Assembly (NCBI GenBank): GCA_021324455.1
Contig: JAJPJA010000139.1
Location: forward strand, 6,207-70,206
Direction: 5' to 3'
DNA: 64,000 bases
Source: Pseudomonadota bacterium
GTDB taxonomy: Bacteria; Desulfobacterota; Binatia; Binatales; Binataceae
A program made the translations under genes and the position numbers. This document shows, one piece after another, positions 14,257 through 48,763 of this stretch (its first letter is position 1; each line of letters starts with the position of its first letter). A model generated the notes under the pieces. That model saw nothing but the letters and a program-made list of their open reading frames with translations. It searched no databases and had not been told where the DNA came from.

Positions 14257-14826
14257 GCGCTTGCGTGGCTTCGCCTCCATGGCGCCCAGACCAGAATGCG
14301 GGGCGCGCTCTCCCTGTCACTGAAATCGATCCGGCATTTTTTCGAAGCGGGGAGCCTGCCGTTAATCAATCGCGATCGGAGCGAACCCGCACGGGCCGCC
14401 GGAGTCCGGCCGGAATACCTCGGAACCATGATTCGTATTCGCTTTGGATTATCGTGACAGTTCTATTCTGAGCTAACGCAGGCTATACCCTCGACATGGG
14501 CCGACGAACCTGCGGGCCCGCAAGCGTCAGGTTGGCGCCAATCCATACAATCTGACCCCATCCGATGCAGCCTGCGCATGCCGCATCTGCGTCCAATCGC
14601 AACACAAAGACAGATTTCATTTCAATTTATCCAGAAATACTCACAACTGCATAAGTGGCACACACAATGCAAATTTCCGGCTTGTCCTGATTCGAAGAGC
14701 AGCGTATGAACAACAATCCTGAAGCGATAAGAAAAGATGGCGTATTGACCGACAGATAACCACTTTTTGGTTCGCCCGTCCGCTGCTTCCGCGCAACAGG
14801 GAATTTCAAACGCACGGAGGCTGCAA

Positions 14827-16416
14827 ATGAACGCTCGCCGCGGTTTTCTCACCGTCGCGATCACGGCAATCGCAATCCTTGGTGTCCTGATAACCGGTCT
14901 GCCCGGCATCCGGCTCACGCCAGCGAATGCCGCATCGACATACATCACGATTGGCTCGCCCGGCGGGGGCGCGACCGTTCACGGTACGATCACGGTTGCC
15001 ACTAAAGAAAGCGCAAACGTGAGTTGGGTCAACTTTTACGTCGACGGCCTATGGTTCGCATCCAATCCTCCCGCCGCATTACCGCCCTATTCGGTGGCCT
15101 GGAACTCGAAATCGGCCGCGGACGGCAAGCATACGCTGTCCGTCAACGGCTACAATTCCAGCAATGTAGTAATCGCCGGGGCCAGCGTGAACGTGACGGT
15201 GCGCAACTCGACAGCGCCATCGCCGACGCCGCGCCCAACTCCGACTCCAAAACCTACACTCAAGCCGACCCCGACCGCATCTCCCAAACCGAGTCCCGGA
15301 GCGTCTCCGAAACCAACCGCGACTGCATTGGCCTCGACCTATATAACAATAACGTCGCCCGCGGCGGGCGCCACCGTCAGCAATACGATTACTTTAGCTA
15401 CTCATGAAAGCAGCAATGTAAGCTGGGTCAATTTCTACGTGGATAATGTATGGTTCGCGTCCAATCCTCCCACCACTCCACCGCCGTATTGGATGGTTTG
15501 GAATTCAAACGCGGTAGGCAATGGCAGCCATACACTATCGGTCGACGGCTACAATTCGAGCAATGTAGTAATCGCGAGCGCCAAAATAACTGTCAACGTG
15601 GAGAATTTCACCAGTCCGACTCCAACCATGCGGCCGACGTCAACCGCGCGTCCAGGCACGACTCCAACCCCGCGCCCGACCATGCTTCCCACGGCGTCGC
15701 CCAAGCCCAGCCCATCTCCGGCGCCCTCGGTTGCCTATCCTCTTTCCGACGCCGCCGCGGCCGCCAAGGTAACGCTCAATGCGGCGTTCGAGCCGCGGCC
15801 CGGGAATTACACCCCCAACCACAAGGTTCCCAACGCCGGAGAGCTGGCGCTGATCGGCAGCCTGAGCTGGCTCGATACCCATGGCAATGGCCTGCTGACC
15901 AGGGCCACCGGCAATTACACCGGCACCACCGACGAGATTCTGCAGTGGGCGGCCTACAAGTGGGGTTTCGATCCGGATATAACGCGCGCCAACGCGGTCA
16001 CCGAAACGCATTGGTATCAGTACGATCTGGGCGATATCGGCAACGGCGTGAGCCTTGGTATCCTGCAGATCAAGTCGCGCGACTACGCCGGCACCTGCAA
16101 TCCGGTTTCGAGCAACGGCTTCAATACCAGCTACGTCACGGATCCGAACTGCCTGTCGTATAACTACACCGCATTCGCGGCCGACTACAAGTTGGCTTAT
16201 CAGCGCGCATGCATGGACGGCAGCATCACGTATCTCAATTCGCAGACTCCGACCAGCGGCTATCCGACATACGCCAATGCCACCGGCAGCGCGCGGTTAT
16301 GGGGATGCATAGGCGACTGGTACAGCGGCAACTGGTACGACAGCGGTGCTTTGTCCTATATCAAGGATGTGCAGAACAATTTGGCCAACAAGACCTGGCT
16401 GCAGCCCGGATTCTGA
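14827..16416 (+). CDS. secreted protein: two Ig-like repeats with Pro/Thr linkers plus a C-terminal lysozyme-like (transglycosylase-like) domain
   Basis: GGAGG upstream of the ATG and a signal/anchor segment. The 133-aa module is duplicated. The C-terminal TETHWYQ...GVSLGILQIKS resembles the E...GLMQI motif of lytic transglycosylases. Confidence 0.75.
   Translation: MNARRGFLTVAITAIAILGVLITGLPGIRLTPANAASTYITIGSPGGGATVHGTITVATKESANVSWVNFYVDGLWFASNPPAALPPYSVAWNSKSAADGKHTLSVNGYNSSNVVIAGASVNVTVRNSTAPSPTPRPTPTPKPTLKPTPTASPKPSPGASPKPTATALASTYITITSPAAGATVSNTITLATHESSNVSWVNFYVDNVWFASNPPTTPPPYWMVWNSNAVGNGSHTLSVDGYNSSNVVIASAKITVNVENFTSPTPTMRPTSTARPGTTPTPRPTMLPTASPKPSPSPAPSVAYPLSDAAAAAKVTLNAAFEPRPGNYTPNHKVPNAGELALIGSLSWLDTHGNGLLTRATGNYTGTTDEILQWAAYKWGFDPDITRANAVTETHWYQYDLGDIGNGVSLGILQIKSRDYAGTCNPVSSNGFNTSYVTDPNCLSYNYTAFAADYKLAYQRACMDGSITYLNSQTPTSGYPTYANATGSARLWGCIGDWYSGNWYDSGALSYIKDVQNNLANKTWLQPGF
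14935..15729 (+). repeat. in-frame tandem duplication (2 x ~399 nt) inside CDS 14827-16416
   Basis: Units 14935-15333 and 15334-15729 both begin STYITI(G/T)SP and share blocks such as SNVSWVNFYVD, WFASNPP and GYNSSNVVIA. Each ends in a P/T/S/K-rich linker. Confidence 0.9.
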
Positions 16417-16484
16417 CCCGCCGGACGCATCGCAACTCCCCATTGGAATGCCCTCTCCCGCGGCTGCTTCCGCGGGCTCGGGCT

Positions 16485-16967
16485 TCAGCCGTTGAATTGG
16501 ATCGGCTGGGGACAAGCGTTGCCGCCGGCGTTGTAGTCATACACCATACGGCCGCCGAAATCTGCGCCGATAGTCACTGCGGCGATCAGAACCAGCAGCA
16601 GAAGTAAAAACACGATCCCGCCCCGTACCGGCATCGGCCGCGCGATCCATGCCCAACTCGAGAGCACCACGCTCAATCCCAGCACGCCGAGCATGATGCG
16701 CTGATGATTTATCAGGAGGTGTTCGCGCACCGAGGGCGCCACCATCACACCTTCGGCGGCGTAAAGTCCGCTCGCAACCGCGGCGGCCGCGCCGATCGTT
16801 CCCAGGCCCAGCAGCCACAGCCCGCTCCACGCCATACTCTGCCGGCGCGCGAGTGAGGCGAGAAAGTACAGGAGCGCGGCGCCGAACAAAAACGCAATCG
16901 GAAAATGAACTATTAACGGATGAATATTCTGAAGATGCCGCGCTCCCGGAAGCAGATGCCCCAGCAC
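16485..16967 (-). CDS. DUF2231-family integral membrane protein
   Basis: 160 aa, about 4 TM segments. The N-terminal HPLIVHFPIAFLFG signature and the C-terminal GGRMVYDY are typical of DUF2231. Confidence 0.7.
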   Translation of the reverse strand: MLGHLLPGARHLQNIHPLIVHFPIAFLFGAALLYFLASLARRQSMAWSGLWLLGLGTIGAAAAVASGLYAAEGVMVAPSVREHLLINHQRIMLGVLGLSVVLSSWAWIARPMPVRGGIVFLLLLLVLIAAVTIGADFGGRMVYDYNAGGNACPQPIQFNG

Positions 16968-16971
16968 GATC

Positions 16972-17328
16972 CTACTTCACCGATTCGACGGTGAGGAAAT
17001 GCATTCCGCCCTTGGTGTACTCCTGCCCGGTCACCGTCACCTCATCCTCCATCTTGTCCAGCACCGCCGCCGGCAGCGCCTGTTTGTCCTTGGGCGGCAA
17101 GAGGACGAAGTACTTGTCGGTCTTGTTCTGTTCCAGCAGCACAGGAATTCCAGCCTTGGCGCACGCCATGGCGCATTCGTGATGGCCCGAGCCGTGAGCG
17201 CCCATAGTCAGATAGCAGAAGCTGTCCCTCAAATGGCCGGTGACCGTGCTCGGCGCCGCGAACGCCGCGCCCGCACTTCCCAATCCCAGCAGCAGGCCCG
17301 CGCAGCAAGCAGTGATTGACTTGAGCAT
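16972..17328 (-). CDS. small secreted Cys/His-containing protein
   Basis: GGGAGGGA upstream of the ATG and a signal peptide (AAFA/AP). The mature part contains C...HGSGHHECAMAC. It ends 4 nt before the DUF2231 gene starts. Confidence 0.55.
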   Translation of the reverse strand: MLKSITACCAGLLLGLGSAGAAFAAPSTVTGHLRDSFCYLTMGAHGSGHHECAMACAKAGIPVLLEQNKTDKYFVLLPPKDKQALPAAVLDKMEDEVTVTGQEYTKGGMHFLTVESVK

Positions 17329-17416
17329 TTCAGTCCCTCCCTGGCGACGTTGTTCAGGATGCGGTCCAGTCGCTAATTGATTTTTTGCCAGCTTCCATTT
17401 CGATAAGCAAGCGCCG

Positions 17417-17908
17417 CTAACGCGGCCGACTCGACGGCTCGCTCTGAACCCGGCCGCCGAGGTCGGCCTGGCCCTCGAATTCGGAAACGGGGCGGTAAGA
17501 ATTGGAAGGCGTGACCGGCGGATTTTCGCGGTTCACGAAATATCGTCGGGGCAGCGGCGGATGGCGTTGGAGTTCCAGCGCGCACGGCGACGCCGATGCG
17601 CGCGCGGCGAGCGCCCGCACAGCTTGCTCCAATTGTTCGTCGCGAGTCCACGCGCCCGCGCCTTCGCGGATGACGGTTCCGGTAAAATCGTAGCGATGCC
17701 AGTACACGATTCGTGTGCGCGCGCCGGCGGGGTCATCGGGCAGCGCGTTGTACGACCATTTTTCGTTGAAAATAACTCCGTGCTCGCCATGGTCGCGCGG
17801 ATCGTTGAGGCTGCCCTCGATTCTGTCCGGCGTGCCCAGCAGCCAGGTTACCAGATTGCGAATAATACGGACGCCCGCCGAATCGACTGATAGAGCTTGC
17901 CCCGGCAT
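17417..17908 (-). CDS. hypothetical protein
   Basis: Start set at the first ATG downstream of the nuoEF stop. Third-codon-position GC is good across the ORF. No family recognised. Confidence 0.5.
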   Translation of the reverse strand: MPGQALSVDSAGVRIIRNLVTWLLGTPDRIEGSLNDPRDHGEHGVIFNEKWSYNALPDDPAGARTRIVYWHRYDFTGTVIREGAGAWTRDEQLEQAVRALAARASASPCALELQRHPPLPRRYFVNRENPPVTPSNSYRPVSEFEGQADLGGRVQSEPSSRPR

Positions 17909-17958
17909 GCCGTACCTCAATTGGAAATTACTCAGTTTGACTTTCGCCGGCGCGCGTT

Positions 17959-19749
<1,791 letters not shown>

Positions 19750-19754
19750 CACGT

Positions 19755-21008
19755 TCACCGATCGCATTCGCCGCCGATCATGTTGATCATGTCGAAGGTC
19801 GGAATGATATCGGCGAGCTGACGGCCGATGATCATCCGTGCCAGCGGATGCATATTGCAAAGACTGGGTCCGCGCACGCGGCATTTGTACGGTTTGCCGG
19901 TGCCGTCGCTCACCAGATAAAACCCGAACTCGCCGTTGCCGCCCTCGATGGCGAAATAGGCCTCGCCCGCCGGCATCAGCCCGTTCTCTTCCACCACCAG
20001 CATGAATTGATCGATCAGCTCCTCCATGCGGTTGAAAACCCGGTTTTTGCCGGGCCATCGAAAGCGCGGATCGTCGACGTCCACCGGACCGGGCTGGATC
20101 TGATCCAGGCATTGCAGCGCCATGCGGCGGCTCTGGCGAATTTCCTCGACGCGCACCAGGTAGCGGTCGAAATTGTCTCCATGTTCGCCCACCGGCACGT
20201 CGAAATCGAGCCGGTCATAGACCAGGTACGGCTCGACGCGGCGCAAATCCAGCGGCACCCCGGCGGCGCGCAGAACCGGGCCGGTTACTCCGTAAGCGAT
20301 AAGTTCAGCGGCTGAAAGTGTGCCGGTCCCCTCCATCCGCTCGCGGAATATCGGATTGCCGGTCAGCAGCTTCTCCGCGTCATGCAGCAGCTTCATGGCG
20401 CCGTCGAGCTTGCGGCGACAAAAATCCGCAAAGCCGTCGGGCAGGTCCGCCGCGACGCCGCCGATTCGAATATAATTGGTGGTCACCCGCGATCCGCACA
20501 GGGCGTCGAGCAGGTCCCAGACCAGCTCGCGGGCTTCGAGCAGATACAGAAACGGCGTCATCGCGGCCAATTCCAGGCACGAGGCGCCGATGCATAACAG
20601 GTGATCCGCGATTCGCGAGAGCTCGCCGGCAATCACCCGCACGTACCTGCATCGCTCCGTGATCGCGATGCCAGCAAGTTTCTCGACCGCCATGCAATAG
20701 CCGATGTTGCACAAAATCGGCGAACTATAATTCAATCGATCCGTATAGGGTATATTCTGATAGTAATATCCGCTCTCGCATTCCTTCTCGAATCCGCGAT
20801 GCAGATATCCCACCTGGACGTCGGCGTTGAGGATCTTCTCCCCCTCCAGCTCCAGCATGATGCGCACCGTGCCGTGCGTGGCGGGATGCGAGGGGCCGAA
20901 CTGCAGCCGCATCGGCGGCGTCGGCAGTTCGCCGGGTTCGGACGGCTCAATCCTGCCCGGTGCGCCCGATATATGGCCGGCGGGGGAGATGTCCGCCGGG
21001 TCCGACAT
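19755..21008 (-). CDS. nuoD: NADH-quinone oxidoreductase subunit D
   Basis: Motifs FGPSHPATHGTVR, GYLHRGFEK and C-terminal IGGECDR are present. The start is ambiguous (21041, 21008 or 20912). I chose 21008 from codon usage. It overlaps the nuoC 3' end out of frame. Confidence 0.9.
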   Translation of the reverse strand: MSDPADISPAGHISGAPGRIEPSEPGELPTPPMRLQFGPSHPATHGTVRIMLELEGEKILNADVQVGYLHRGFEKECESGYYYQNIPYTDRLNYSSPILCNIGYCMAVEKLAGIAITERCRYVRVIAGELSRIADHLLCIGASCLELAAMTPFLYLLEARELVWDLLDALCGSRVTTNYIRIGGVAADLPDGFADFCRRKLDGAMKLLHDAEKLLTGNPIFRERMEGTGTLSAAELIAYGVTGPVLRAAGVPLDLRRVEPYLVYDRLDFDVPVGEHGDNFDRYLVRVEEIRQSRRMALQCLDQIQPGPVDVDDPRFRWPGKNRVFNRMEELIDQFMLVVEENGLMPAGEAYFAIEGGNGEFGFYLVSDGTGKPYKCRVRGPSLCNMHPLARMIIGRQLADIIPTFDMINMIGGECDR

Positions 21009-21618
21009 ATTCCTGGATGGGCTGTTCTTCCTGTTTGCCATAGTCCTTTCTCAGTGGATGGCCGACGAATTCGTCGTAAAGAAAGATCCGCCGCAGGTCC
21101 GGATGCCCGCTGAAGCGGATCCCGTAAAGGTCGTAAGTCTCGCGTTCCAGCCAGTTGGCGCCGGGCCATATTCCGGTCACGGTCGGTATGGCGGGATCCT
21201 CTTCGGGCACGCGGCATTTGATTCGCAGCCGGTGGATGAGAGCGGTCGAAAGCAGATGATAAACCACGGCGAACCGCGGCAGCGGACCGCGCTCGGGCAT
21301 CGCCACCCGATGCCGCGAATGGCTGACCCGCCTTGCGATAGGCCGGTTCTGATCCATTATCGGCGCCTGAAAGCGAAAGCCGTCGGGCTGGCCGCAATAG
21401 TCAATCGCGGTGACATCGATTAGCATGTCGAAAGACAGTCCGGGCGAGTCGCGCAATATCTGCGCCGCCGCCGCTATATTTTCGCGCGCGACATGGATTC
21501 GATCGTCGCCGCGCTCGCGATGATATTCGATTACCAGCTCGCCGAGCGCCGCAAGCACCTTTTCCATCAGCGGCGGCGCTGGTTCGCGATCGGGCGGGGA
21601 ATCGTTTCTATCTTCCAT
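20947..21618 (-). CDS. nuoC: NADH-quinone oxidoreductase subunit C
   Basis: Motifs RFAVVYHLLS, WPGANWLERETYDLYGIRF and GHPLRKDY are present. GAGG lies 7 nt upstream of the ATG. It overlaps the nuoI stop by 11 nt. Confidence 0.85.
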   Translation of the reverse strand: MEDRNDSPPDREPAPPLMEKVLAALGELVIEYHRERGDDRIHVARENIAAAAQILRDSPGLSFDMLIDVTAIDYCGQPDGFRFQAPIMDQNRPIARRVSHSRHRVAMPERGPLPRFAVVYHLLSTALIHRLRIKCRVPEEDPAIPTVTGIWPGANWLERETYDLYGIRFSGHPDLRRIFLYDEFVGHPLRKDYGKQEEQPIQEYVGPGGHLPRRPYIGRTGQD

Positions 21619-22144
21619 ACTGCGACCTCAGGAAATCGATACGGGTCCTCAGCCGGGACTCGGGAACCAAAAGATCCTCCTTGTGCCACAACGAGCCGCC
21701 GCGCGAATAGGTGCTGATCTCGATCTGCCGGCTCATCACGATCGCTTCTTCAGGGCAGGCTTCCTCGCACAGGCCGCAGAACATGCAGCGGGTCATGTCG
21801 ATATCGAAAATTTCCGGATATCTTTCCACTTCGCTGTCGGTCTCGGCGGGGAATATGCAGATGCAGCTGGTCGGACAGGCCCATTCGCATAAACCGCACG
21901 CGACGCATCGCTCCCGGCCGTTCTCCATCTGCACCAGCACCGGCATTCCGCGCAGCGCCGGGGCGTGAAGAAAACGCTGCTCGGGGTAATAGACGGTAAA
22001 ATCCTGGCGTCCGCGGATAAAACCGAACAGGTTTGCGATCAGGTGGCGGGTGGTAACCCACAATCCCGCTATGATTGCCAGGCCGGAGCGCCAACTGGTT
22101 ATTTGCGGCGGCGGACGTAAAACTTTTTTGACCTGTACCGCCAT
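21608..22144 (-). CDS. nuoI: NADH-quinone oxidoreductase subunit I
   Basis: Two 4Fe-4S motifs, CVACGLCEWACP and CMFCGLCEEACP. The ATG lies 4 nt after the nuoG stop. Confidence 0.9.
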   Translation of the reverse strand: MAVQVKKVLRPPPQITSWRSGLAIIAGLWVTTRHLIANLFGFIRGRQDFTVYYPEQRFLHAPALRGMPVLVQMENGRERCVACGLCEWACPTSCICIFPAETDSEVERYPEIFDIDMTRCMFCGLCEEACPEEAIVMSRQIEISTYSRGGSLWHKEDLLVPESRLRTRIDFLRSQYGR

Positions 22145-22148
22145 AATT

Positions 22149-23768
22149 CTAAGAAGGAGCCGTGTGAACTGTCTGCGGCCCAATGTTCTCCGGGTCAACC
22201 AGCGGAGCTCCCAAAGTGCCAAGCCGATCCAGCGACAGACCCGCAAAGCGCGGATTACCCGCAGCGATTTGCGACCAGACCGCCTCGGGACTGAAACGCT
22301 CGGCGCGGGACTCGATACGGTTGAGCAATTGCGTGAAAATCTCGCCGTCCGACATCCATCCGGGCGGCGGATCGACCGCGACCGCAATGCGCTGGGCGCG
22401 GCCCGCGTGGTTTACGAACACTCCATTTTTCTCGGCGAATGAGGTGGCGGGAAACGCGACGGCGGCGCGGGCGTATTCGGGAATCTGCCGCAGCGTCTGC
22501 ACCGCCACAAACTCCAGCGGCTGCAACAGCGCCGCGGTTTGCTCAGCGCCGATGACGCGCAGGAGATCCTCTCCGCACACGTAGAGAGCTTTGATGCGGC
22601 CGGCCCGCACCGATTGGAGCAGCGAGTTCAAACCGTCGTCCTCGCCGCTGACCAGACCCAATTCGCGCACGCCGCGCGCGTTGGCCGCCTTTTCCGCCTT
22701 GATCAGAAAATTATCGGCCGCTCCGCGCGGCACCGCCATCGCGAGCTTCTCCGCGCCCAACGCGCGCAGAAGCTCGCCGAAGCGGAAGTTCTCCTCGGTC
22801 GTAAGATGAGGCGAGATCAGCGCGCCGATTGCGGATCCGCCCCAGGTATCGCGCACGCGGATGAGGCCGCCGGCGGCGCGTTCCAGAGCTTCGGACCAGG
22901 TCGCGGCGGACGGCGCGCCGCTTTCATTGATCAGCGGATGCCGCAGGCGGGGACGGTTGACGAAGCGGTAACCAAGCCGTCCGCTGTCGCACATCCAGGT
23001 GTCGTTGACGGCATCATTGCGGCGCGGAAACAGCCGCCAGATTTGACCGTAGCATTCGTCCACCATGATATTGCAGCCATTGGAACAGCCCGGACAGACG
23101 CTCGCGGTCTGGGTAAAGAACCAGACCCGCAGCCGATGATGAAAGTCCCTGGTCTCCAGGGCCCCCACCGGACAGATGTCCGCGGTACACATTGAATAGG
23201 GATTGTCCAGGCGGGAATCGCCGATATCCAGTACGGAGCGATGGCCGCGATTGAATATAAGCAGTTCTCCGGTTTTGGTAATCTCGCGGCAAAAGCGCAC
23301 GCAGCGGCGGCATAAAATACATCGCTCCTGATCGAGCAGCATCCGCTCGCCGATGTCCAGGCGCTTGCCGAGCTTGCGGCGCGGCATGACGCTGCGCCCC
23401 CGGCGGCTGCCGAAGCGCACCGAGTAATTCTGCAGCCAGCATTCGCCGGCCTTGTCGCAGATTGGACAATCCAGCGGATGATTGAGCAGCAGCAATTCGA
23501 GCACGCCGCGGCGCGTCTGCGCGGCCTCTTCATCGTCGGTATGCACGAGCATGCCGGCACGCACCTGCGTATTGCACGCGATCTGCAACTTCGGCATCCC
23601 TTCGATTTTGACCGCGCACAGCCGGCAGCTCCCGTCGATGGAAAGCTTCGGGTGGTAGCAGTAATGGGGAACATCGATTCCCGCATCGAGCATCGCCTGC
23701 AGCAGCGGCACGCCCTCAGGCGCGGCTATGGTTCGCCCATCGACGACTATCTGAACGATATTTTCCAT
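22149..23768 (-). CDS. nuoG: NADH-quinone oxidoreductase subunit G (short form)
   Basis: N-terminal 2Fe-2S motif (CYHPKLSIDGSCRLC...C), HPLDCPICDKAGEC, CILCRRCVRFC...CPVGA and CPGCSNGC are present, followed by a short molybdopterin-like region. The ATG lies 2 nt after the nuoB stop. Confidence 0.85.
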   Translation of the reverse strand: MENIVQIVVDGRTIAAPEGVPLLQAMLDAGIDVPHYCYHPKLSIDGSCRLCAVKIEGMPKLQIACNTQVRAGMLVHTDDEEAAQTRRGVLELLLLNHPLDCPICDKAGECWLQNYSVRFGSRRGRSVMPRRKLGKRLDIGERMLLDQERCILCRRCVRFCREITKTGELLIFNRGHRSVLDIGDSRLDNPYSMCTADICPVGALETRDFHHRLRVWFFTQTASVCPGCSNGCNIMVDECYGQIWRLFPRRNDAVNDTWMCDSGRLGYRFVNRPRLRHPLINESGAPSAATWSEALERAAGGLIRVRDTWGGSAIGALISPHLTTEENFRFGELLRALGAEKLAMAVPRGAADNFLIKAEKAANARGVRELGLVSGEDDGLNSLLQSVRAGRIKALYVCGEDLLRVIGAEQTAALLQPLEFVAVQTLRQIPEYARAAVAFPATSFAEKNGVFVNHAGRAQRIAVAVDPPPGWMSDGEIFTQLLNRIESRAERFSPEAVWSQIAAGNPRFAGLSLDRLGTLGAPLVDPENIGPQTVHTAPS

Positions 23769-23770
23769 CT

Positions 23771-24361
23771 TCAGGTCAGCTTGCGGCCGCTGCCGTGTAT
23801 CAATTGCCACGGCTTGCCGGGCCTTTCGTTCTGGACCCGGTGCTGCAGCTTGATCAGTCCGTCGAGCACCGCTTCGGGACGCGGCGGGCATCCGGGTATA
23901 TAGATGTGCACCGGCACGATGCGATCGATACCCTGGAGCACGGCGTAATTGTCATACGGTCCGCCCGAGCTGGTACAGGCGCCGAAGGATACGACCCATT
24001 TGGGTTCGGTCATCTGGTCGTAGACGCGCCGCAAAACGGGCGCGAGGCGCTGGGTAATTGTTCCGACCACGAACAGCAAATCAGCCTGGCGCGGGGTGAA
24101 GCGGGGCAGAGCAGCGCCGAACCGATCGATGTCATAGCGGGGGCCGGCCACCGAGAAATACTCCATCCCGCAGCACGCGGTCACGAAAGGATAAGGAAAG
24201 AACGAATACTTGCGCGCCCACTGGACCGCGTCCTTAAGCCGGGTCACAACAAAGCTGTCGGGGAACGCGTCGGCCTCATTCGCCGCGCCCGGACCCGCAT
24301 GGCGTCCGCTGACGAGATAGGCGGAAATCCGTTTGCGTCGGTGTTCGCTTTGCTCACTCAT
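23771..24361 (-). CDS. nuoB: NADH-quinone oxidoreductase subunit B (divergent)
   Basis: GAGGTGA upstream of the ATG. N2 cluster ligands are present: tandem CC in TACCGMEY, then FGACTSSGG and IPGCPPRPEA. Confidence 0.85.
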   Translation of the reverse strand: MSEQSEHRRKRISAYLVSGRHAGPGAANEADAFPDSFVVTRLKDAVQWARKYSFFPYPFVTACCGMEYFSVAGPRYDIDRFGAALPRFTPRQADLLFVVGTITQRLAPVLRRVYDQMTEPKWVVSFGACTSSGGPYDNYAVLQGIDRIVPVHIYIPGCPPRPEAVLDGLIKLQHRVQNERPGKPWQLIHGSGRKLT

Positions 24362-24575
24362 GATTTCACCTCGCAATACGAAGCGGCCGCGATCCGGAGG
24401 CTTTGGCGCATGACGCGCAACCGTGTCATCCCACGGGCATGATGCAGAGATGTTGGTCATTCGCCGGGGGCCGCCGCACGGCGCATCGGCGAGGGTCGGA
24501 ACCTCGCCTGCTATAGTAACAGATGCGGCGGCGGCAGCGCTCGATTTGATTTCTTCCGCGCCGGCCAAAGCGGAA

Positions 24576-24941
24576 CTAATCCGGGTCGCGCAAGCCGGCT
24601 TCGAGCACCTCCTTGAGCACCACCGCCTGGTTGTGTTGCTCGTCCTTCGCGCTGTACACGAGCGTGAGCTTTCCCTGGCGGGCGATCCGGCGCAACTGAT
24701 CCAGCAACGCTTGCGCTTCGGGGCGTTTGAGCTCCTTGCGGTAGCGGCGGCAAAACTCGATCCAGCGATCGGGGTCGTGGCCGAAAAAGCGGCGCAGTTC
24801 GTTGCTGGGACCGAGCTCGCGCATCCATTGATGAACCTGCAGGTCCTGCTTTCTGACTCCGCGCGGCCACAGCCGGTCGACCAGGATGCGCGTGCCGTCA
24901 TCGCGCCCGCGCGGCAGGTATGCGCGCTTGATTGCGATCAT
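24576..24941 (-). CDS. DUF488-family protein
   Basis: 121 aa. The IAIKRAY...DRLWPRG...FCRRYRKEL pattern is typical of DUF488 (YeaO-like). Confidence 0.75.
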   Translation of the reverse strand: MIAIKRAYLPRGRDDGTRILVDRLWPRGVRKQDLQVHQWMRELGPSNELRRFFGHDPDRWIEFCRRYRKELKRPEAQALLDQLRRIARQGKLTLVYSAKDEQHNQAVVLKEVLEAGLRDPD

Positions 24942-24989
24942 GGGTTCGGCCCAAAAAAATATGGTTTTCGAGGCCGGCGAGCGGAATGC

Positions 24990-27074
24990 TTAAGGCGCAG
25001 GTGCGCCGGCCATCAACTTATCGAGCAATTCCGGCTCGACCGGTTTGGCCACAATGGCATCAACCCAGCGGCGGCGGGGATCGTTGGCATGAATCTCCTG
25101 CGCCCAGCCGGTAAATAGAAAAAAAAGCGGGGGATCGGAGCGCGATTTCACCCGGCGAGCGATATCCCATCCGTTTATCTCCGGCATCCCGAGATCGCAG
25201 AATACCACATCCACGGGGCATTCGCTGTGCATCAGCTCCTTGAGCGCGACCGCTCCGGAGCTGGCGCCGGAGACGCGATGCCCGCGCGCTTCCAGAAATC
25301 CCTTGAGCGCGTCGAGATTGGCGCGGTCGTCATCTATCACCATAACCCGGCGCGGCCGGATTTGCGCCTGCGACACGGGGGTGTTGTCCCGCCCAATGTC
25401 GCGCTGACTCAGCGGGAAGCGCAGGGTGAAGATCGCGCCGCCTTCAGCGCGATTGCCGGCGCTGATACTGCCGCCCAGCCGCGCCATCGCACCATAGGCG
25501 ACCGCCAATCCCAGACCGCTGCCGCGCTCGCCCTTGGTGGTGAAAAAAGGATCGAATATCCGATTGAGGTTTTCGGGCGGAATACCGCAGCCCTCGTCCT
25601 CAACCGTTACCACCACGCCATTGTCCGCGGCCTTAGCGGCGATGCGCACGGCACCGCCGCGCGGCATCGCATCATGAGCGTTCAACAAAAGATTAACGAA
25701 AATCTGCCGCAGCTCGACCGGTTCACCGAGCACCGCGGGCAAGCCGGGCAAATCCACGACAATCCTGATGCGCCCGCCGAAGACCGAGGTTTTCTCCTCC
25801 AGCGTGCTGTGAACCATCTCGACCGATTGATCTATGACGGTCTTCAGATCGACGGCGGCAACCGGACGATCGTGGCGGCGGCGGGCGAAATCCTGCAGCC
25901 GTCCGATTGTGGCGCTGGCGTCGCCGACAATACGCGACAGCAGTCCCAGCCGTTCGCGATATCGGTCGGGAAACTGCTGCTCACCGCACAGCAGTTCAAG
26001 GTGCAGGCGCAGGGCATTGAGGCTGTTATTCAGGTCGTGCGCGATGCCGGAGGCCAGTTCGCCCACGGCAGTCAGTCGTTCCTGATTGGCCATCGCCTCG
26101 CGATTGCGCCGCAGTTCCTCCTCGGCCGCCACTCGATCGGTAACGTCCTGTCCGACCGCCAGCACGCAGGGCTGTCCGTCGATCTGAAGCGTACTCCACG
26201 AGCATACGGTATGGATGACGTTGCCCTGGCGCCCGCGCCAGACCACCGGAGTCTGACTTGAACCAGCGCCTCCGTCCTTCAGCGACTCAATCCACTTCAT
26301 GTATTGGCGCGGATCCGGCCATGCGTCCAGATCGGTCAACAGCCGCCCGATCGCGTCGCGCCGAGAGTATCCAAAAATCGCCTCCCAGGCGGGGTTCACA
26401 TCGACTATATGCCCGTCGATCAGAGAGTAGATGCCGATCCAGGAACCGCTGGTCTCAAAGATCTGGCGGAATTTCGATTCGCTGCGGACCAACGCGCCGA
26501 GGTAAAGCTGGATGCTCTCACGCTGGCGGGTAAGCACTTCATTAACCAGATGCGCCCCGAGAATTGCCGCCACCATCGCCGAAAGCCCGGAAACCACCAG
26601 GCTGTCGCGCCATTCCAGTTGGCTGGCCAAAGCGGTGCCGAAAACAATGCAGATCGCGCTCATCCCGGCCTGCCAGCGCGTTTCCCACGGAAGACAGGTT
26701 CCGCCCACCGGCAGAAGAACCAGCAGGAACAGAAAGGGAGCCGGCGACGCGCCCTTTATCGACAGCAGACCCGAACTGAGTATCAGCAGGGTCGCGAAAA
26801 TCAACGTCGCCGGCTTCCATATCCGCAGGAAATTCGCGGACCATGTCGCGATCAGCAGCGCCACCGTGCAAGCTAGCCAGATGGCCTGGATCAGGATTGT
26901 CAACCAGTCAGGCCGGCGTAGGATTACGGTCTGGTAAACCGGCAGGATCAGTTCCGCGATCAGACTGACGGCGGCGGCCAGGCGCAGACGGATAATTGCT
27001 TCCTGGTCCGGAGAGGAAGGCCGCGACCACCTCAGAACCTCCCCCGGTGCTGATTTGGAGCTGCGAAACGGCAC
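24990..27074 (-). CDS. hybrid sensor histidine kinase (multi-TM, PAS, HisKA, HATPase, receiver)
   Basis: H-box SGIAHDLNNSL, N-box NLLLNAHDAM, G-boxes DEGCGI and GSGLGLA, and a C-terminal REC domain (VMVIDDD...CDLGMPEINGWD). The start is uncertain. I chose GTG at 27074, 6 nt after GAGG. Confidence 0.85.
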   Translation of the reverse strand: MPFRSSKSAPGEVLRWSRPSSPDQEAIIRLRLAAAVSLIAELILPVYQTVILRRPDWLTILIQAIWLACTVALLIATWSANFLRIWKPATLIFATLLILSSGLLSIKGASPAPFLFLLVLLPVGGTCLPWETRWQAGMSAICIVFGTALASQLEWRDSLVVSGLSAMVAAILGAHLVNEVLTRQRESIQLYLGALVRSESKFRQIFETSGSWIGIYSLIDGHIVDVNPAWEAIFGYSRRDAIGRLLTDLDAWPDPRQYMKWIESLKDGGAGSSQTPVVWRGRQGNVIHTVCSWSTLQIDGQPCVLAVGQDVTDRVAAEEELRRNREAMANQERLTAVGELASGIAHDLNNSLNALRLHLELLCGEQQFPDRYRERLGLLSRIVGDASATIGRLQDFARRRHDRPVAAVDLKTVIDQSVEMVHSTLEEKTSVFGGRIRIVVDLPGLPAVLGEPVELRQIFVNLLLNAHDAMPRGGAVRIAAKAADNGVVVTVEDEGCGIPPENLNRIFDPFFTTKGERGSGLGLAVAYGAMARLGGSISAGNRAEGGAIFTLRFPLSQRDIGRDNTPVSQAQIRPRRVMVIDDDRANLDALKGFLEARGHRVSGASSGAVALKELMHSECPVDVVFCDLGMPEINGWDIARRVKSRSDPPLFFLFTGWAQEIHANDPRRRWVDAIVAKPVEPELLDKLMAGAPAP

Positions 27075-30158: not shown

Positions 30159-31559
30159 CTAATGGCCCGGGGGCCCTCCCGGCAGCGACTGTCCGGTCGC
30201 GCGGTCCACCTGCGATTTGGCCAACGAATAGCTGTACAAGGCGTTGGCGTAGTTGGCGTCGTCTTCGGTGTAATGCCGCTGAGCGTCTTCCAGTTCGACA
30301 ATATTGGTCAGTCCGGCCTCGTATCGCTTTTCGGCCAGTTCAAGCTCAACGCTCGACGCCGCCACGGCAGCTTCGGCGCGCCGAATCCGATCGAGCGACG
30401 CCTGCCAGTCGAGAAACGCGGTCTTTACCTGCAGGATTACGCGCTGGCGCAAATCGTCGAACGCATGCTCCAGCGCTTCCTGCTGGAGCCTGGTCTCCTC
30501 CACCTGATGCGTGGTGAGAAAGCCGTTGAACATCGGCCAGGTGATGACCAGGCCGACGTTGAAATTGTTGATCGCCGGCAACCCGGTGCCCATGGCGTTG
30601 TAACCGCCGACCGCGTTGGCGGTAGGCAGAAAATCGCTGCGATATTGTTTGATCACCGCGCCCATCGCACGAATCTGATCTTCGATTGCGGCAAGGTCGG
30701 GCCGATCGCGCATCGCGATCCGCACCAGGGCGCCCATGGTTGCGTTAATCTTGCTGTAGGTCAGAACGTCCGCCGGACGGTAATCCGGCGCCGCCTCGCT
30801 CAGTCCCATGGCATTATCCAGCGCCACCTTGCCGTCGGCGACGGCGTTGCGCGCGTCAACCAGCCGCAGTTGTGCGCGCTCCAATTCCGCCTGGGTGACG
30901 TAAACGTCAAGCTGCGGACGCAAGGCGGCGTTGGCCTTCACCTGGGCTTCATGCAGATGGTAGCGCCGCTGCTCCACCGCTTTTTCGTAAACCCGTACCA
31001 GCTGTTGGGCGGCCAGCAGGCTGAAATAGCGCTGCGAGACCTCAAAAATCAGGTCCAATTCGACCAGTAATTCCTGCGCCTTGGCGGCCGCAGCTTCATA
31101 GCGGCGCTGTTCGACGTAGCCGCGCCGGCGGCCGAAATCGAGCAGGAATTGCGAGATGCTGAAGCCGCCCAGATAGTTGTTGTAGGTGTCAGCCACCTGA
31201 CTGAAGTCGTTGGAGGGCAGGTCATGATTGCGGCCCGATTCGCGCGGAAACATCCCGCCCACATCGTAATATTGAGTGTTGCCGATCCCGTTGGCGGTGG
31301 TGCGCAGGTATTGCGCGCTGCTGTACACCTGCGGCAACAGTTCGGAGCTCGCCTCGCCCACCCGTTGCGCCGCCGCGCCGCTGTTGGCCGCCGCCTCGCG
31401 CCGCCGCGGATGGAACCGCAGGGCAATCGCGATCGCGTCCTTGAGGGTGAGCTGGGAGCCCGGGGTTATCGGACTCTGGTTGGCAGCCGGCATCGCCAGC
31501 CCGGGCAGCCCAATCATGATACAGCAGGCCAAAGCCACTCTGCTCCAGGTTTTGTTCAT
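30159..31559 (-). CDS. TolC-family outer membrane efflux protein
   Basis: 466 aa with a signal peptide and two repeated coiled-coil/beta halves typical of OMF proteins. It is the last gene of the RND operon. Confidence 0.8.
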   Translation of the reverse strand: MNKTWSRVALACCIMIGLPGLAMPAANQSPITPGSQLTLKDAIAIALRFHPRRREAAANSGAAAQRVGEASSELLPQVYSSAQYLRTTANGIGNTQYYDVGGMFPRESGRNHDLPSNDFSQVADTYNNYLGGFSISQFLLDFGRRRGYVEQRRYEAAAAKAQELLVELDLIFEVSQRYFSLLAAQQLVRVYEKAVEQRRYHLHEAQVKANAALRPQLDVYVTQAELERAQLRLVDARNAVADGKVALDNAMGLSEAAPDYRPADVLTYSKINATMGALVRIAMRDRPDLAAIEDQIRAMGAVIKQYRSDFLPTANAVGGYNAMGTGLPAINNFNVGLVITWPMFNGFLTTHQVEETRLQQEALEHAFDDLRQRVILQVKTAFLDWQASLDRIRRAEAAVAASSVELELAEKRYEAGLTNIVELEDAQRHYTEDDANYANALYSYSLAKSQVDRATGQSLPGGPPGH

Positions 31560-31585
31560 GAACCAATCTCTCCCTGCCTGAACCG

Positions 31586-32746
31586 CTACTCCTGGCTGGC
31601 GACATCGGCGCTGTCGCTCTTGCTGACCATGTATTGAACCGCCTCGCCGGCGCGCAATGTCGGGCGCACCGCGCTGACCACCAGTTCGTCACCGCTCAAG
31701 CCCGAAGTGATCTCGGCATAGCGGCCGTCATTGATGCCGATGGCGACCGGTTTTTTCACCAGATGTCCGTCGGCAACGACATAAACATAGGGCGATTTCC
31801 CCAGCTCTCCGATGCTGCCGATCGGCAGGCGCATGGCGTCGGGATGCCGCACCAGGTCGAGCGTGACGTGAGCATACATCCGCGGATAAAGCTGATGGGA
31901 CGGATTATCGATATCGATCTCGGTCATCATGGTGCGGGTGGCCAGATCCAGCGAGTTGGCGTAGCGGGCAACCACTCCGCTAAAGCTGCGTCCGGGAAAT
32001 TCCTCGAAGCGCAAGGTGGCCGGGGTCCCGCGGCGAATCAACGCGACCACCTGTTCGGGAACGTAAACATAAACCCGCAGCTTGTCGATTTTCGCCATCG
32101 TCAGCACCGGTCCGCCGCCGCCGCGATGGCCGCCCGCTCCTTCCACCGCACCGGGCGAAACCAAACCCGACATCTCGTTGACGCCGATATCGCCGCCGCC
32201 CGCCCGGATCAGGGCGCCGGGGTCGGCGAAACGGCCGGTGATCACGCCGTCGAACGGCGCCACGATTTTGGTGTAATCGCACATCGTGTGCAGCGTTTCC
32301 ACGGTCGCCTTGGCCTGTTGGAATTTGGCGAATGCGACGTCGACATCCTGCTGCGAAACCAGACGCGGATCGCTCTGCTGCACCTTGCGCAGCCGGTCGT
32401 AGGTGATGGTCTGGATCGACAGGTTGGCCTCGGCCTGACGCAGATTGGAGTGCAGTTCCGGCACCTGGATGGTGGCGAGCACCTGGCCCGCTTTGACCCA
32501 GTCGCCTTTGTCCACCGTGATGGTTTGAAGATAGCCGGTTACCTTGGCGTGCAGCGCAGCCTCATAGAAGCCCACCAGATCTCCGGGCAGCTCGATCGAG
32601 CGCATCATGTCCGCGCGCTGCGGACGCGTCACGCTGACTACCGGCTTGGGTAGAGTTGTTTTGGTCTCGGCCGGCGCCTCGCAGCCGGCAACCGCGGCGG
32701 CAAACGCCAGCGCCGCAAGCAGCACCATCGGACGGTACGTTGTCAC
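31586..32746 (-). CDS. efflux RND periplasmic adaptor (MFP/HlyD family)
   Basis: Lipobox AGC, a biotinyl-lipoyl-like motif (VDKGDWVKAGQVLATI) and beta-barrel and MP domains. Its start abuts the RND stop. Confidence 0.85.
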   Translation of the reverse strand: MTTYRPMVLLAALAFAAAVAGCEAPAETKTTLPKPVVSVTRPQRADMMRSIELPGDLVGFYEAALHAKVTGYLQTITVDKGDWVKAGQVLATIQVPELHSNLRQAEANLSIQTITYDRLRKVQQSDPRLVSQQDVDVAFAKFQQAKATVETLHTMCDYTKIVAPFDGVITGRFADPGALIRAGGGDIGVNEMSGLVSPGAVEGAGGHRGGGGPVLTMAKIDKLRVYVYVPEQVVALIRRGTPATLRFEEFPGRSFSGVVARYANSLDLATRTMMTEIDIDNPSHQLYPRMYAHVTLDLVRHPDAMRLPIGSIGELGKSPYVYVVADGHLVKKPVAIGINDGRYAEITSGLSGDELVVSAVRPTLRAGEAVQYMVSKSDSADVASQE

Positions 32747-35878: not shown

Positions 35879-35933
35879 CTTTGCAGATTCTCCAATCCTT
35901 CAGCTCAGCGGCCGCAACCGGAGCTTTCCCCGT

Positions 35934-45946: not shown

Positions 45947-46006
45947 CCCCGCTTCCCGTTTTATACGCGCCGATTTTTTCTGGCCGATTGGCACTGGCAA
46001 TCCGCC

Positions 46007-47980: not shown

Positions 47981-47989
47981 TAACGCCGC

Positions 47990-48709: not shown

Positions 48710-48763
48710 GGCGCCATCGACATTATCCGCTCCTGCCGGGCGAGGCGACCGATGCCGCAGGGT

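What the first reader, a model, noticed from the sequence alone, without database searches (positions are those of the whole stretch)
16485..24361. Peripheral-arm-only complex I gene set (nuoB-G-I-C-D-EF) in non-canonical order, with no membrane-arm genes in the window
All hydrophilic complex I subunits (B, C, D, E, F, G, I) are encoded back to back on the minus strand, with gaps of 5 nt or less or with overlaps. The order is B-G-I-C-D-E/F instead of the canonical A-B-C-D-E-F-G-H-I-J-K-L-M-N. None of nuoA/H/J/K/L/M/N appears anywhere in the 64 kb. The cluster is bounded upstream by a DUF488 gene and a histidine kinase. The next same-strand genes downstream are a hypothetical protein, a secreted Cys/His protein and a DUF2231 4-TM protein. 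Cofactor motifs look intact: the N2 tandem CC in NuoB, FMN and NADH motifs and N3 in NuoF, and the 2Fe-2S and 4Fe-4S sets in E, G and I. The genes are therefore probably functional. NuoB is noticeably divergent around the CC motif (FPYPFVTACCGMEYF versus the usual WPMTFGLACCAIEMM, from memory). Two readings are possible. This may be a split nuo system with the membrane arm encoded elsewhere. Alternatively, it may be a separate NADH-oxidising module that docks to a different membrane partner. The second reading is speculation.
Basis: partly seen in the sequence, partly recalled or inferred. Interest (0 to 1): 0.7.

Follow-up and report, generated by a model that had tools for sequence, protein, structure and literature searches.

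The report
Split complex I operon in Binatia
This is the cytoplasmic half of an ordinary respiratory complex I, encoded apart from its membrane half (a separate nuoAHJKLMN operon found in related Binatia genomes), so it is a rearranged operon rather than a new enzyme; the one new element is a small conserved unknown protein that always follows it.

Summary
Window 17959-24361 (minus strand) encodes NuoB, a short NuoG, NuoI, NuoC, NuoD and a fused NuoE-F, tightly packed, with all cofactor motifs intact. No membrane subunit is found in the 64 kb.

The organism belongs to Binatia. The B-G-I-C-D-E-F order is invariant in 85 loci; 256 GTDB species carry a close NuoD relative. No locus has nuoA/H/J/K/L/M/N within 10 kb.

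The membrane arm exists elsewhere. Two Binatia MAGs carry a stand-alone nuoA-H-J-K-L-M-N operon. One of them (DASXLI01) also carries the peripheral cluster on another contig.

The DUF2231 and Cys/His neighbours occur only in the window and its closest relative, so they are not partners. Split nuo operons are already published for Bdellovibrio and myxobacteria.

Newer points:
- The exact arrangement in Binatia, with the E-F fusion and a truncated NuoG.
- A NuoB/NuoD signature; its two NuoD changes match those a paper reports for Myxococcales.
- An orphan protein "X" (17417-17908) that follows NuoF in 69 of 72 loci. In four further sampled clusters without membrane-subunit genes it follows NuoD (three arrangements) or NuoF.

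Copy number of B/C/D/I in this genome is unresolved.

The parts
24362..24575 (-). 214-nt intergenic region upstream of nuoB; presumed promoter region of the operon
   Evidence: It is the only sizeable non-coding gap at the head of the cluster. A GAGGTG ribosome-binding site precedes the nuoB ATG. No sigma-70 consensus match was found above background, so promoter function is inferred only.
23771..24361 (-). nuoB (196 aa), N2 cluster subunit, divergent FVTACCGMEY motif
   Evidence: Matches Pfam Oxidored_q6. Passes NCBIfam NuoB subfamily cut-offs (NF005012 and TIGR01957). Best PDB matches are complex I PSST/NuoB at about 1e-51, against MBH/FHL at 1e-24 to 1e-26. Cys ligands at 63, 64, 129 and 158.
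22149..23768 (-). nuoG (539 aa), truncated C-terminal molybdopterin-like domain
   Evidence: Matches Pfam Fer2_4, NADH-G_4Fe-4S_3, Fer4_Nqo3, Molybdop_Fe4S4 and Molybdopterin. Scores 407.6 on TIGR01973, below the 470 cut-off. N1b, N5 and N4 motifs and a CPGCSNGC motif are present. Median length across loci is 535 aa.
21608..22144 (-). nuoI (178 aa), two 4Fe-4S clusters
   Evidence: Matches Pfam Fer4 families. NCBIfam NuoI models are the best hits but fall just under their cut-offs. Carries CVACGLCEWACP and CMFCGLCEEACP.
20947..21618 (-). nuoC (223 aa)
   Evidence: Matches Pfam Complex1_30kDa at 1.5e-43. Passes the TIGR01961 cut-off. Fused to NuoD in some Binatia lineages, for example L002.
19755..21041 (-). 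nuoD (428 aa by longest ORF, overlapping nuoC by 95 nt)
   Evidence: Matches Pfam Complex1_49kDa at 1.6e-96. Passes the NF004739 equivalog (456 against 360). PDB complex I 49-kDa/Nqo4 matches reach about 1e-100. Carries GPSHPATHG, DRLNY and GGECDR, with no NiFe Cys motifs.
17959..19749 (-). nuoE-nuoF fusion (596 aa): N1a, FMN, NADH site, N3
   Evidence: Matches Pfam 2Fe-2S_thioredx, Complex1_51K, SLBB and NADH_4Fe-4S in one ORF. Passes NF010120 NuoF. Motifs confirmed. The fused product was also called in other loci.
17417..17908 (-). X: conserved orphan protein (163 aa) that closes the cluster; candidate accessory subunit or assembly factor
   Evidence: Lies within 400 nt downstream of NuoF in 69 of 72 testable loci. 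Distant homologs sit directly after NuoD or NuoF in other membrane-less Nuo clusters. No Pfam, NCBIfam or PDB match by sequence or fold. Only 82 representatives among 1.84 billion. A GAGG ribosome-binding site precedes the ATG.

Best explanation
The cluster is the peripheral-arm operon of a conventional 14-subunit respiratory complex I (NADH:quinone oxidoreductase) of a Binatia bacterium. It covers the N-module (NuoE-F, NuoG) and the Q-module (NuoB, C, D, I).

In this lineage the nuo genes are split into two transcription units. One is nuoB-G-I-C-D-EF-X, seen in the window. The other is a separate nuoA-H-J-K-L-M-N operon elsewhere in the chromosome.

Proposed mechanism:
- NADH is oxidised at the FMN of the fused NuoEF.
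- Electrons pass along the Fe-S chain of NuoG, NuoI and NuoB (cluster N2).
- Quinone is reduced in the cavity formed by NuoB, NuoD and the separately encoded NuoH. The quinone is probably menaquinone, because the published Binatota survey reports menaquinone biosynthesis in all genomes.
- This drives proton pumping by NuoL, M and N.

The small protein X is co-transcribed. It most likely acts as an extra subunit or an assembly factor for the hydrophilic arm.

Shown: gene identities, cofactor motifs, conserved order, absence of linked membrane genes, existence of the separate membrane operon in relatives (one in the same MAG), and linkage of X.

Inferred: co-transcription, physical assembly of the two halves, quinone type, and the role of X.
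For: - Identity of all seven core hydrophilic subunits, with intact cofactor motifs.
- NuoB and NuoD match solved complex I far better than group-4 hydrogenases: 1e-100 and 1e-51 against 1e-35 to 1e-24.
- The quinone-site His (THG) and Tyr (DRLNY) are kept.
- The order B-G-I-C-D-E-F is invariant in 85 loci, and 256 GTDB species carry a close NuoD relative.
- No A/H/J/K/L/M/N gene lies within 10 kb of any locus.
- Stand-alone nuoA-H-J-K-L-M-N operons occur in Binatia MAGs GCA_036496285.1 (L217) and GCA_029243485.1 (L219), with the same upstream neighbours.
- L217 (contig DASXLI010000029.1) and peripheral locus L071 (contig DASXLI010000018.1) come from the same MAG and have matching GC, 0.690 and 0.688.
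- The Binatota survey states that all complex I subunits are encoded in all genomes (PMC8262859 and its Text S1).
- Split nuo operons are documented for Bdellovibrio (PMC13147790, PMC4758237) and myxobacteria (PMC2330069).
Against: - The membrane operon was not seen in the window's own genome. Its contig could not be extended. The paired MAG is only 67% identical in NuoD.
- Copy number of B/C/D/I is unknown. One homolog is named 'nqo6 1' by its depositor, which hints at a second NuoB in that MAG.
- NuoG, NuoI and NuoE fall below the curated equivalog cut-offs, and NuoB is unusual around N2. Some functional divergence is therefore possible.
- Co-transcription and assembly are untested. Promoter and terminator scans were uninformative.
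Confidence: 0.85

Rival explanations
1. The cluster encodes an alternative (second) peripheral arm. Binatia would also have another set of B/C/D/I, and possibly E/F/G, in a second nuo operon. The two hydrophilic arms would be isoforms, for example with different quinone or inhibitor sensitivity, that share or compete for membrane arms.
For: - One homolog carries the depositor name 'nqo6 1', which implies at least one more nqo6 in that MAG.
- The NuoB/NuoD quinone-pocket signature (FVTACCGME; D86N and D401N) is unusual. PMC4758237 discusses the same NuoD changes as natural inhibitor resistance in Myxococcales.
- Many soil bacteria carry two nuo operons (PMC4758237).
Against: - The membrane operons found in Binatia contain no B/C/D/I of their own, so they need the products of this cluster.
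- Every one of the 85 loci has a single set.
- No second Binatia-type NuoD turned up, but the scan used variant-specific peptides, so this is weak evidence.
Confidence: 0.1
2. The cluster encodes a stand-alone NADH dehydrogenase module. It would work as a soluble enzyme or dock to a non-Nuo membrane partner: DUF2231 in the window, or the MFS protein inserted between nuoG and nuoI in many relatives.
For: - No membrane Nuo gene is linked in any of the 85 loci.
- An MFS gene sits inside the cluster in at least 34 loci.
- A DUF2231 gene follows the cluster in the window.
- Soluble relatives of this subunit set exist (HoxEFUYH); this rests on established knowledge.
Against: - DUF2231 and the Cys/His protein are present only in the window and L005.
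- The MFS gene is absent from the window and from about half of the loci.
- NuoD keeps the quinone-binding His and Tyr and lacks NiFe ligands.
- The genomes carry a membrane operon that lacks exactly these subunits.
Confidence: 0.04
3. The cluster is a decaying or non-functional remnant of a rearranged operon.
For: - The gene order is non-canonical.
- nuoC and nuoD overlap by 95 nt.
- NuoG is truncated.
- Several subunits score below curated cut-offs.
Against: - All ORFs are intact and all cofactor ligands are kept.
- The same order and the same truncation are conserved across 85 loci at 63-90% NuoD identity, and 256 species carry a close NuoD relative.
- Genes are tightly coupled, with ribosome-binding sites.
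Confidence: 0.01

Closest known systems
Canonical bacterial complex I (NDH-1; E. coli nuoA-N, Thermus thermophilus Nqo1-14)
   Same: It has the same seven hydrophilic subunits with the same cofactor ligands and quinone-site residues. The best sequence matches are to solved complex I structures. The same seven membrane subunits are present in related genomes.
   Different: - The genes form two operons instead of one.
- The order is B-G-I-C-D-EF rather than B-C-D-E-F-G-(H)-I.
- NuoE and NuoF are fused.
- NuoG is about 535 aa, against 783-908 aa.
- NuoB has FVTACCGMEY instead of FGLACCA(I/V)EMM.
- NuoD has D86N and D401N (Thermus numbering).
- An extra gene, X, is present.
Split nuo organisation of Bdellovibrionota (nuoAHJKLMN cluster separate from the remaining genes; PMC13147790, PMC4758237)
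   Same: A membrane-only A-H-J-K-L-M-N cluster lies apart from the hydrophilic-subunit genes.
   Different: It is a different phylum. Whether Bdellovibrio has X is unknown.
Myxobacterial split nuo clusters (nuoEFJKLMN plus nuoIHGDBA; PMC2330069) and the Myxococcales NuoD quinone-pocket substitutions (PMC4758237)
   Same: The gene order is rearranged into two clusters. The NuoD substitutions D86N and D401N reported for antibiotic-producing Myxococcales are also present here, as PYTDRLNY and NMIGGECDR.
   Different: The split point differs. In myxobacteria NuoH and NuoA stay with B/D/G/I, and E/F stay with J-N. In Binatia all hydrophilic genes are together and all membrane genes are together. 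The signature comparison rests on the paper's text, not on an alignment made here.
Streptomyces nuo2 partial cluster (nuoA2,H2,J2-N2; PMC6676996, from its title and term counts)
   Same: A membrane-subunit-only nuoAHJKLMN cluster exists as a separate unit.
   Different: From my own recollection, not checked here, the Streptomyces cluster is an extra copy beside a complete nuoA-N operon. In Binatia the membrane-only operon appears to be the partner of the peripheral-only operon.
Soluble NAD-reducing [NiFe] hydrogenase HoxEFUYH and group 4 membrane-bound hydrogenases
   Same: The subunits are homologous: E, F, the G N-terminus (HoxU), B (small subunit) and D (large subunit).
   Different: The NuoD here has no NiFe cysteine motifs. 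It scores 1e-100 to complex I against 6e-35 or weaker to MBH and FHL. NuoC and NuoI are of complex I type.

Membership tests
Respiratory complex I (NDH-1/Nuo), hydrophilic arm | NuoB with four Cys ligands of cluster N2, including the tandem CC | tested here: met
   C63, C64, C129 and C158 are present. The protein passes NCBIfam NF005012 and TIGR01957.
Respiratory complex I (NDH-1/Nuo), hydrophilic arm | NuoD without NiFe ligands and with the quinone-binding His (beta1-beta2 loop) and Tyr | tested here: met
   GPSHPATHG, DRLNY and the C-terminal GGECDR are present. The protein passes the NF004739 equivalog cut-off.
Respiratory complex I (NDH-1/Nuo), hydrophilic arm | N-module: FMN and NADH sites and N3 in NuoF, N1a in NuoE, and N1b/N4/N5 in NuoG | tested here: met
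   All motifs were found. NuoF passes NF010120. NuoE (109.9 against 142.4) and NuoG (407.6 against 470) fall below their cut-offs.
Respiratory complex I (NDH-1/Nuo), hydrophilic arm | NuoI with two CxxCxxCxxxCP motifs and a score above the curated cut-off | tested here: inconclusive
   Both motifs are present. TIGR01971 scores 109.6 against a cut-off of 113.05, and NF004538 scores 117.5 against 135.
Respiratory complex I (NDH-1/Nuo), whole enzyme | Membrane subunits NuoA, H, J, K, L, M and N encoded in the same genome | tested here: inconclusive
   Not testable for the window's own genome, because the contig could not be extended. The feature is met in the related Binatia MAG DASXLI01, with the peripheral cluster on contig 18 and nuoA-H-J-K-L-M-N on contig 29. 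The membrane operon is also present in MAG JAQWRY01.
Respiratory complex I (NDH-1/Nuo), whole enzyme | Physical assembly of both arms and NADH:quinone oxidoreductase activity coupled to proton pumping | not testable with these tools
   This needs biochemistry or complexome profiling.
Split nuo operon (Bdellovibrio-type) | A nuoAHJKLMN cluster without hydrophilic-subunit genes, and hydrophilic genes clustered elsewhere | tested here: met
   L217 and L219 show A-H-J-K-L-M-N only. The 85 peripheral loci have no membrane subunit within 10 kb.
Group 4 [NiFe] hydrogenase / Hox-type soluble hydrogenase | Large subunit with N-terminal RxCGxC and C-terminal DPCxxC NiFe-binding motifs | tested here: not met
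   The N-terminal region reads FGPSHPATHG and the C-terminus reads MIGGECDR. PDB matches to MBH and FHL are 65 or more orders of magnitude weaker than matches to complex I.
Myxococcales-type NuoD quinone-pocket variant (PMC4758237) | D86N and D401N (Thermus Nqo4 numbering) | tested here: met
   PYTDRLNY is invariant in 84 of 84 NuoD sequences, and N is at position 401 in ...NMIGGECDR. Numbering comes from my own recollection of the Thermus Nqo4 sequence. The other substitutions the paper lists (T135A, R350) were not checked, and no Myxococcus sequence was aligned.

The most novel reading that the evidence does not exclude
Protein X (window 17417-17908) defines a previously unrecognised accessory subunit or dedicated assembly factor of the complex I hydrophilic arm. 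It is an orphan domain of about 80 aa with the motif G(T/E)P...(E/Q)GS.N(D/E)P....E......NEKW.Y...R..(Y/L)W.RYDF.G. It would be specific to a clade of bacteria whose nuo genes are split and carry the FVTACCGME / DRLNY / GGECDR quinone-pocket signature. In that clade the hydrophilic arm is made as a separate unit and must be matured and docked onto a separately expressed membrane arm.
Probability: 0.45. Interest if true: 0.5.

Novelty: new variant of a known kind. Interest (0 to 1): 0.3.

Why it matters
The finding does not reveal a new enzyme class, so its weight is modest.

It still adds three things:
- It documents that a whole, globally abundant soil lineage (Binatia; 256 GTDB species carry a close NuoD relative) builds complex I from two clean genetic modules: all hydrophilic subunits in one operon and all membrane subunits in another. 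That makes it a natural system for studying how the two arms are expressed in balance and joined.
- It flags X, a conserved orphan protein co-encoded with the Q-module or N-module in several lineages, as a testable candidate for a new bacterial complex I accessory subunit or assembly factor. Few such factors are known.
- The metagenome scan shows that nuo operons lacking nuoI between nuoH and nuoJ, with B, G, C/D or E/F variously relocated, are common in soil. Annotation pipelines that score complex I by operon completeness will misjudge these genomes.

Tried and rejected
- **Extending the window's 142.9-kb contig.** I looked up end-of-window proteins. One returned only contigs of about 1.3 kb and the other was not on record.
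- **Promoter and terminator scans of 16000-25200.** Counts were within the shuffled expectation, so they were uninformative.
- **DUF2231 or the Cys/His protein as membrane partner.** Rejected: both are found only in the window and L005.
- **Identifying X.** Pfam, NCBIfam, a PDB sequence profile and a Foldseek search of an AlphaFold2 model (mean pLDDT 71, core about 90) gave no significant match.
- **Literature.** Searches for the exact gene order or for Binatia plus nuo found nothing specific. The supplementary figure of PMC4758237 with delta-proteobacterial operon maps is not held as text.
- **Group-4 hydrogenase or Hox-like soluble complex.** Considered and rejected on the missing NiFe motifs and on score gaps.
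- **A single contig carrying both operons.** None of the NuoH hits shares a contig length with any peripheral-cluster contig, so no genomic distance could be given.
- **Second NuoB/NuoD copies in Binatia.** Not searched.

Full report
**1. What is in the window**

Seven genes lie back to back on the minus strand between 17417 and 24361. Pfam and NCBIfam identify them as follows:
- NuoB, 23771-24361, 196 aa.
- NuoG, 22149-23768, 539 aa.
- NuoI, 21608-22144.
- NuoC, 20947-21618.
- NuoD, 19755-21041.
- A single ORF that fuses NuoE and NuoF, 17959-19749, 596 aa.
- An unannotatable 163-aa protein, here called X, 17417-17908.

Junctions are tight:
- B/G: gap of 2 nt.
- G/I: gap of 4 nt.
- I/C: overlap of 11 nt.
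- C/D: overlap of 95 nt.
- D/EF: gap of 5 nt.
- EF/X: gap of 50 nt.

Ribosome-binding-site-like sequences (GAGG or AAAGGA) precede nuoB, nuoC, nuoD and X.

Every expected cofactor ligand set is present:
- N2 in NuoB: CC, GAC and PGCPP.
- Two CxxCxxCxxxCP motifs in NuoI.
- N1a in the NuoE part.
- FMN site, NADH site and N3 in the NuoF part.
- N1b, N5 and N4 in NuoG.

The window contains no nuoA/H/J/K/L/M/N. tblastn with the E. coli subunits and with Binatia's own membrane subunits finds nothing. The only polytopic ORFs are a MATE transporter, an RND pump, a P-type ATPase, a ZIP transporter and a sensor kinase.

**2. It is true complex I, not a hydrogenase relative**

NuoD and NuoB match the 49-kDa/Nqo4 and PSST/Nqo6 chains of solved complex I structures at about 1e-100 and 1e-51. 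MBH and FHL subunits match only at 1e-35 to 1e-24.

NuoD lacks both NiFe cysteine motifs. It keeps the quinone-site His (GPSHPATHG) and Tyr (DRLNY).

Against curated thresholds:
- NuoD, NuoF, NuoB and NuoC pass.
- NuoG, which is truncated, falls below.
- NuoE falls below.
- NuoI falls marginally below.

**3. Whose genome, and how conserved**

The 120 best NuoB homologs are 73-100% identical. Where named, they are Candidatus Binataceae or 'Deltaproteobacteria bacterium'.

A scan of one genome per GTDB species with NuoD found 256 species with a close relative. The best 80 (63-90% identity) are almost all labelled Binatia or Binataceae.

Across these loci, four from other assemblies, and the window (85 in all, about 1.4 Mb), the order B-G-I-C-D-E-F never varies. 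Variations on the theme:
- nuoC and nuoD are fused in some lineages.
- An MFS transporter gene is inserted between nuoG and nuoI in at least 34 loci.
- NuoE and NuoF are separate genes in a more distant relative (L091).

So are GPSHPATHG, PYTDRLNY and NMIGGECDR in NuoD.

By Thermus Nqo4 numbering, which I recalled from memory, these NuoD motifs include D86N and D401N. Degli Esposti reported the same two substitutions for antibiotic-producing Myxococcales and discussed them as quinone-pocket and inhibitor-resistance changes (PMC4758237).

**4. Where the membrane arm is**

None of the 85 loci has a membrane subunit within 10 kb. The published Binatota survey states that all complex I subunits are encoded in all genomes, and that all genomes can make menaquinone (PMC8262859 and its Text S1).

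I had no Binatia NuoH to use as a query. I therefore scanned JGI metagenomes with a DNA pattern that requires the conserved NuoH C-terminal Y-D-Q...W motif, then 230-290 nt, then the NuoJ V-Y-x-G-A motif. This spacing is possible only if nuoI is not between them.

One hit, L112 (GC 0.65), is a clean nuoA-H-J-K-L cluster. Its NuoH retrieved proteins named Candidatus Binatia. The genomic contexts are decisive:
- In MAG GCA_036496285.1, contig DASXLI010000029.1 carries nuoA-H-J-K-L-M-N and nothing else of Nuo (L217).
- Contig DASXLI010000018.1 of the same MAG carries the B-G-I-C-D-EF-X cluster (L071).
- The two stretches have GC of 0.690 and 0.688.
- A second Binatia MAG, GCA_029243485.1, has the same seven-gene membrane operon with the same divergent upstream neighbours, an APH kinase and a nucleotidyl transferase (L219).

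Binatia complex I is thus encoded by two complementary operons.

**5. What the neighbours say**

The Cys/His secreted protein and the DUF2231 protein occur downstream only in the window and in its 90%-identical relative L005. Flanks otherwise differ from lineage to lineage. These two genes are not partners of the cluster.

X is different. It lies within 400 nt after NuoF in 69 of 72 loci where this can be judged.

A profile of X against 1.84 billion representative proteins finds only 82 relatives, mostly 80-150 aa. Four contexts of distant members were sampled, and all are Nuo clusters without membrane genes:
- B-I-C-D-X (L088-L090, GC 0.54).
- B-G-I-C-D-E-F-X (L091).
- sucB-lipB-I-C-D-X-Y (L092-L094).

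A fifth look-up, for the more distant member P0194, returned only contigs of about 1.1 kb with unannotated neighbours, so it says nothing either way.

The NuoB and NuoD proteins I translated from these clusters (L088 NuoB and NuoD, L091 NuoB, L092 NuoD) share the signature above.

X has no Pfam, NCBIfam or PDB relative by sequence profile. Its AlphaFold2 model (mean pLDDT 71, core residues 17-106 about 90) has no significant Foldseek match. It has no conserved cysteines.

The best inference is an accessory subunit or assembly factor of the hydrophilic arm. This is inference from linkage only.

**6. How it most likely works**

The proposed mechanism is the standard one:
- NADH is oxidised at the FMN in NuoEF.
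- Electrons pass through the Fe-S chain to N2 in NuoB.
- Quinone, probably menaquinone, is reduced at the NuoB/NuoD/NuoH pocket.
- NuoL, M and N translocate protons.

The unusual steps are genetic and assembly-related. The hydrophilic arm is expressed as one unit, and the membrane arm as another. The E-F fusion and the shortened NuoG are lineage traits.

**7. Comparison with what is known**

Split nuo organisation is already published:
- A nuoAHJKLMN cluster separate from the rest in Bdellovibrionota (PMC13147790; PMC4758237 calls Bdellovibrio 'split').
- nuoEFJKLMN plus nuoIHGDBA in myxobacteria (PMC2330069).
- A partial nuoAHJKLMN cluster in Streptomyces.

No paper in the searchable library combines Binatia and nuo.

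The Binatia layout is therefore a new variant of a known kind. It divides cleanly into hydrophilic and membrane units, and adds the order B-G-I-C-D-EF, the E-F fusion and X. It is not a new system.

The metagenome scan also shows that relocation of nuoI, and often of B, G, C/D or E/F, is common in soil bacteria. Relatives with the same NuoD signature have other layouts, such as A-C-D-E-H-J-K-L-M-N (L218, L159, L198). This lowers the surprise of any single arrangement further.

**8. What remains open**

- The membrane operon was not seen in the window's own genome.
- Copy number of B/C/D/I in Binatia is untested. One depositor's name, 'nqo6 1', hints at a second NuoB in one MAG.
- Co-transcription, assembly and the role of X are inferred.

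Confidence:
- Split complex I: 0.85.
- Alternative-isoform arm: 0.10.
- Stand-alone or otherwise-anchored module: 0.04.
- Decaying remnant: 0.01.

Interest is modest, at 0.3. The most novel reading still open is that X is a new complex I accessory or assembly protein (probability about 0.45, interest if true about 0.5).

Noticed in passing
L001 12388-13957; also about 34 of the 85 Binatia loci, between nuoG and nuoI: An MFS-type transporter gene (about 470 aa, Pfam MFS_1 in the precomputed calls) is inserted inside the peripheral-arm operon in a large Binatia subclade. It is absent from the window. Its function and its relation to complex I are unknown.
   Followed up: partly
Local tblastn shows many operon types without nuoI, such as A-C-D-E-F-G-H-J-K-L-M, A-B-C-D-E-F-H-J-K, A-E-F-H-J-K-L and A-H-J-K-L. 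Relocation of nuoI, and often of B or G, is therefore common in soil bacteria.
   Followed up: partly
L218 7353-16919 (ENA ERZ28669063 ctg10791, 1.34 Mb, GC 0.53); also L159 and L198: Operon nuoA-C-D-E-H-J-K-L-M-N without B, F, G or I. Its NuoD has the same GPSHPATHG / PYTDRLNY / NMIGGECDR signature as Binatia, and its membrane subunits are as close to Binatia's as two Binatia lineages are to each other. This is a different split of the same enzyme type.
   Followed up: partly
L092 1212-5141; L093 974-4797; L094: Another lineage has sucB(E2)-lipB-nuoI-nuoC-nuoD-X followed by a conserved 182-188 aa protein 'Y'. Y has only a sub-threshold DUF1285_N hit, and its start overlaps the stop of X. nuoB is not adjacent.
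   Followed up: partly
window 16485-17328 (minus strand); L005 13647-14406: A signal-peptide protein rich in Cys and His (118 aa, no family match) is paired with a DUF2231 4-TM protein, 4 nt apart. The pair is conserved only in the closest relative. It may be a small metal- or redox-related membrane module unrelated to complex I.
   Followed up: partly
window 20947-21041: nuoC and nuoD overlap by 95 nt in different frames when the longest NuoD ORF is taken. In several Binatia lineages the two are one fused gene (for example L002, 584 aa). The true NuoD start may instead be the Met at 20912, just before the conserved core.
   Followed up: partly
L217 3049-4841; L219 605-2382: The Binatia nuoA-H-J-K-L-M-N operon has the same divergently transcribed upstream pair (APH-family kinase plus nucleotidyl transferase) in two MAGs whose NuoH proteins are only 66% identical. 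The location of the membrane operon therefore shows conserved synteny.
   Followed up: no
P0111 (NuoB homolog of MAG CTSoil_040; locus L044): The depositor's product name is 'nqo6 1'. This suggests that the annotation pipeline found more than one nqo6 in that MAG, and so hints at a second NuoB copy.
   Followed up: no
window 14767-16416 (plus strand): A 549-aa secreted protein has two Big_7 Ig-like domains separated by long Pro/Thr/Ser-rich linkers and an unassigned C-terminal domain of about 200 aa. It is convergent with the end of the DUF2231 gene.
   Followed up: no
window 45947-48763: A heavy-metal P-type ATPase and a ZIP-family metal transporter lie tail to tail (assigned by reading the translations). 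An RND efflux system (OEP, HlyD, RND pump) is at 30159-35899.
   Followed up: no
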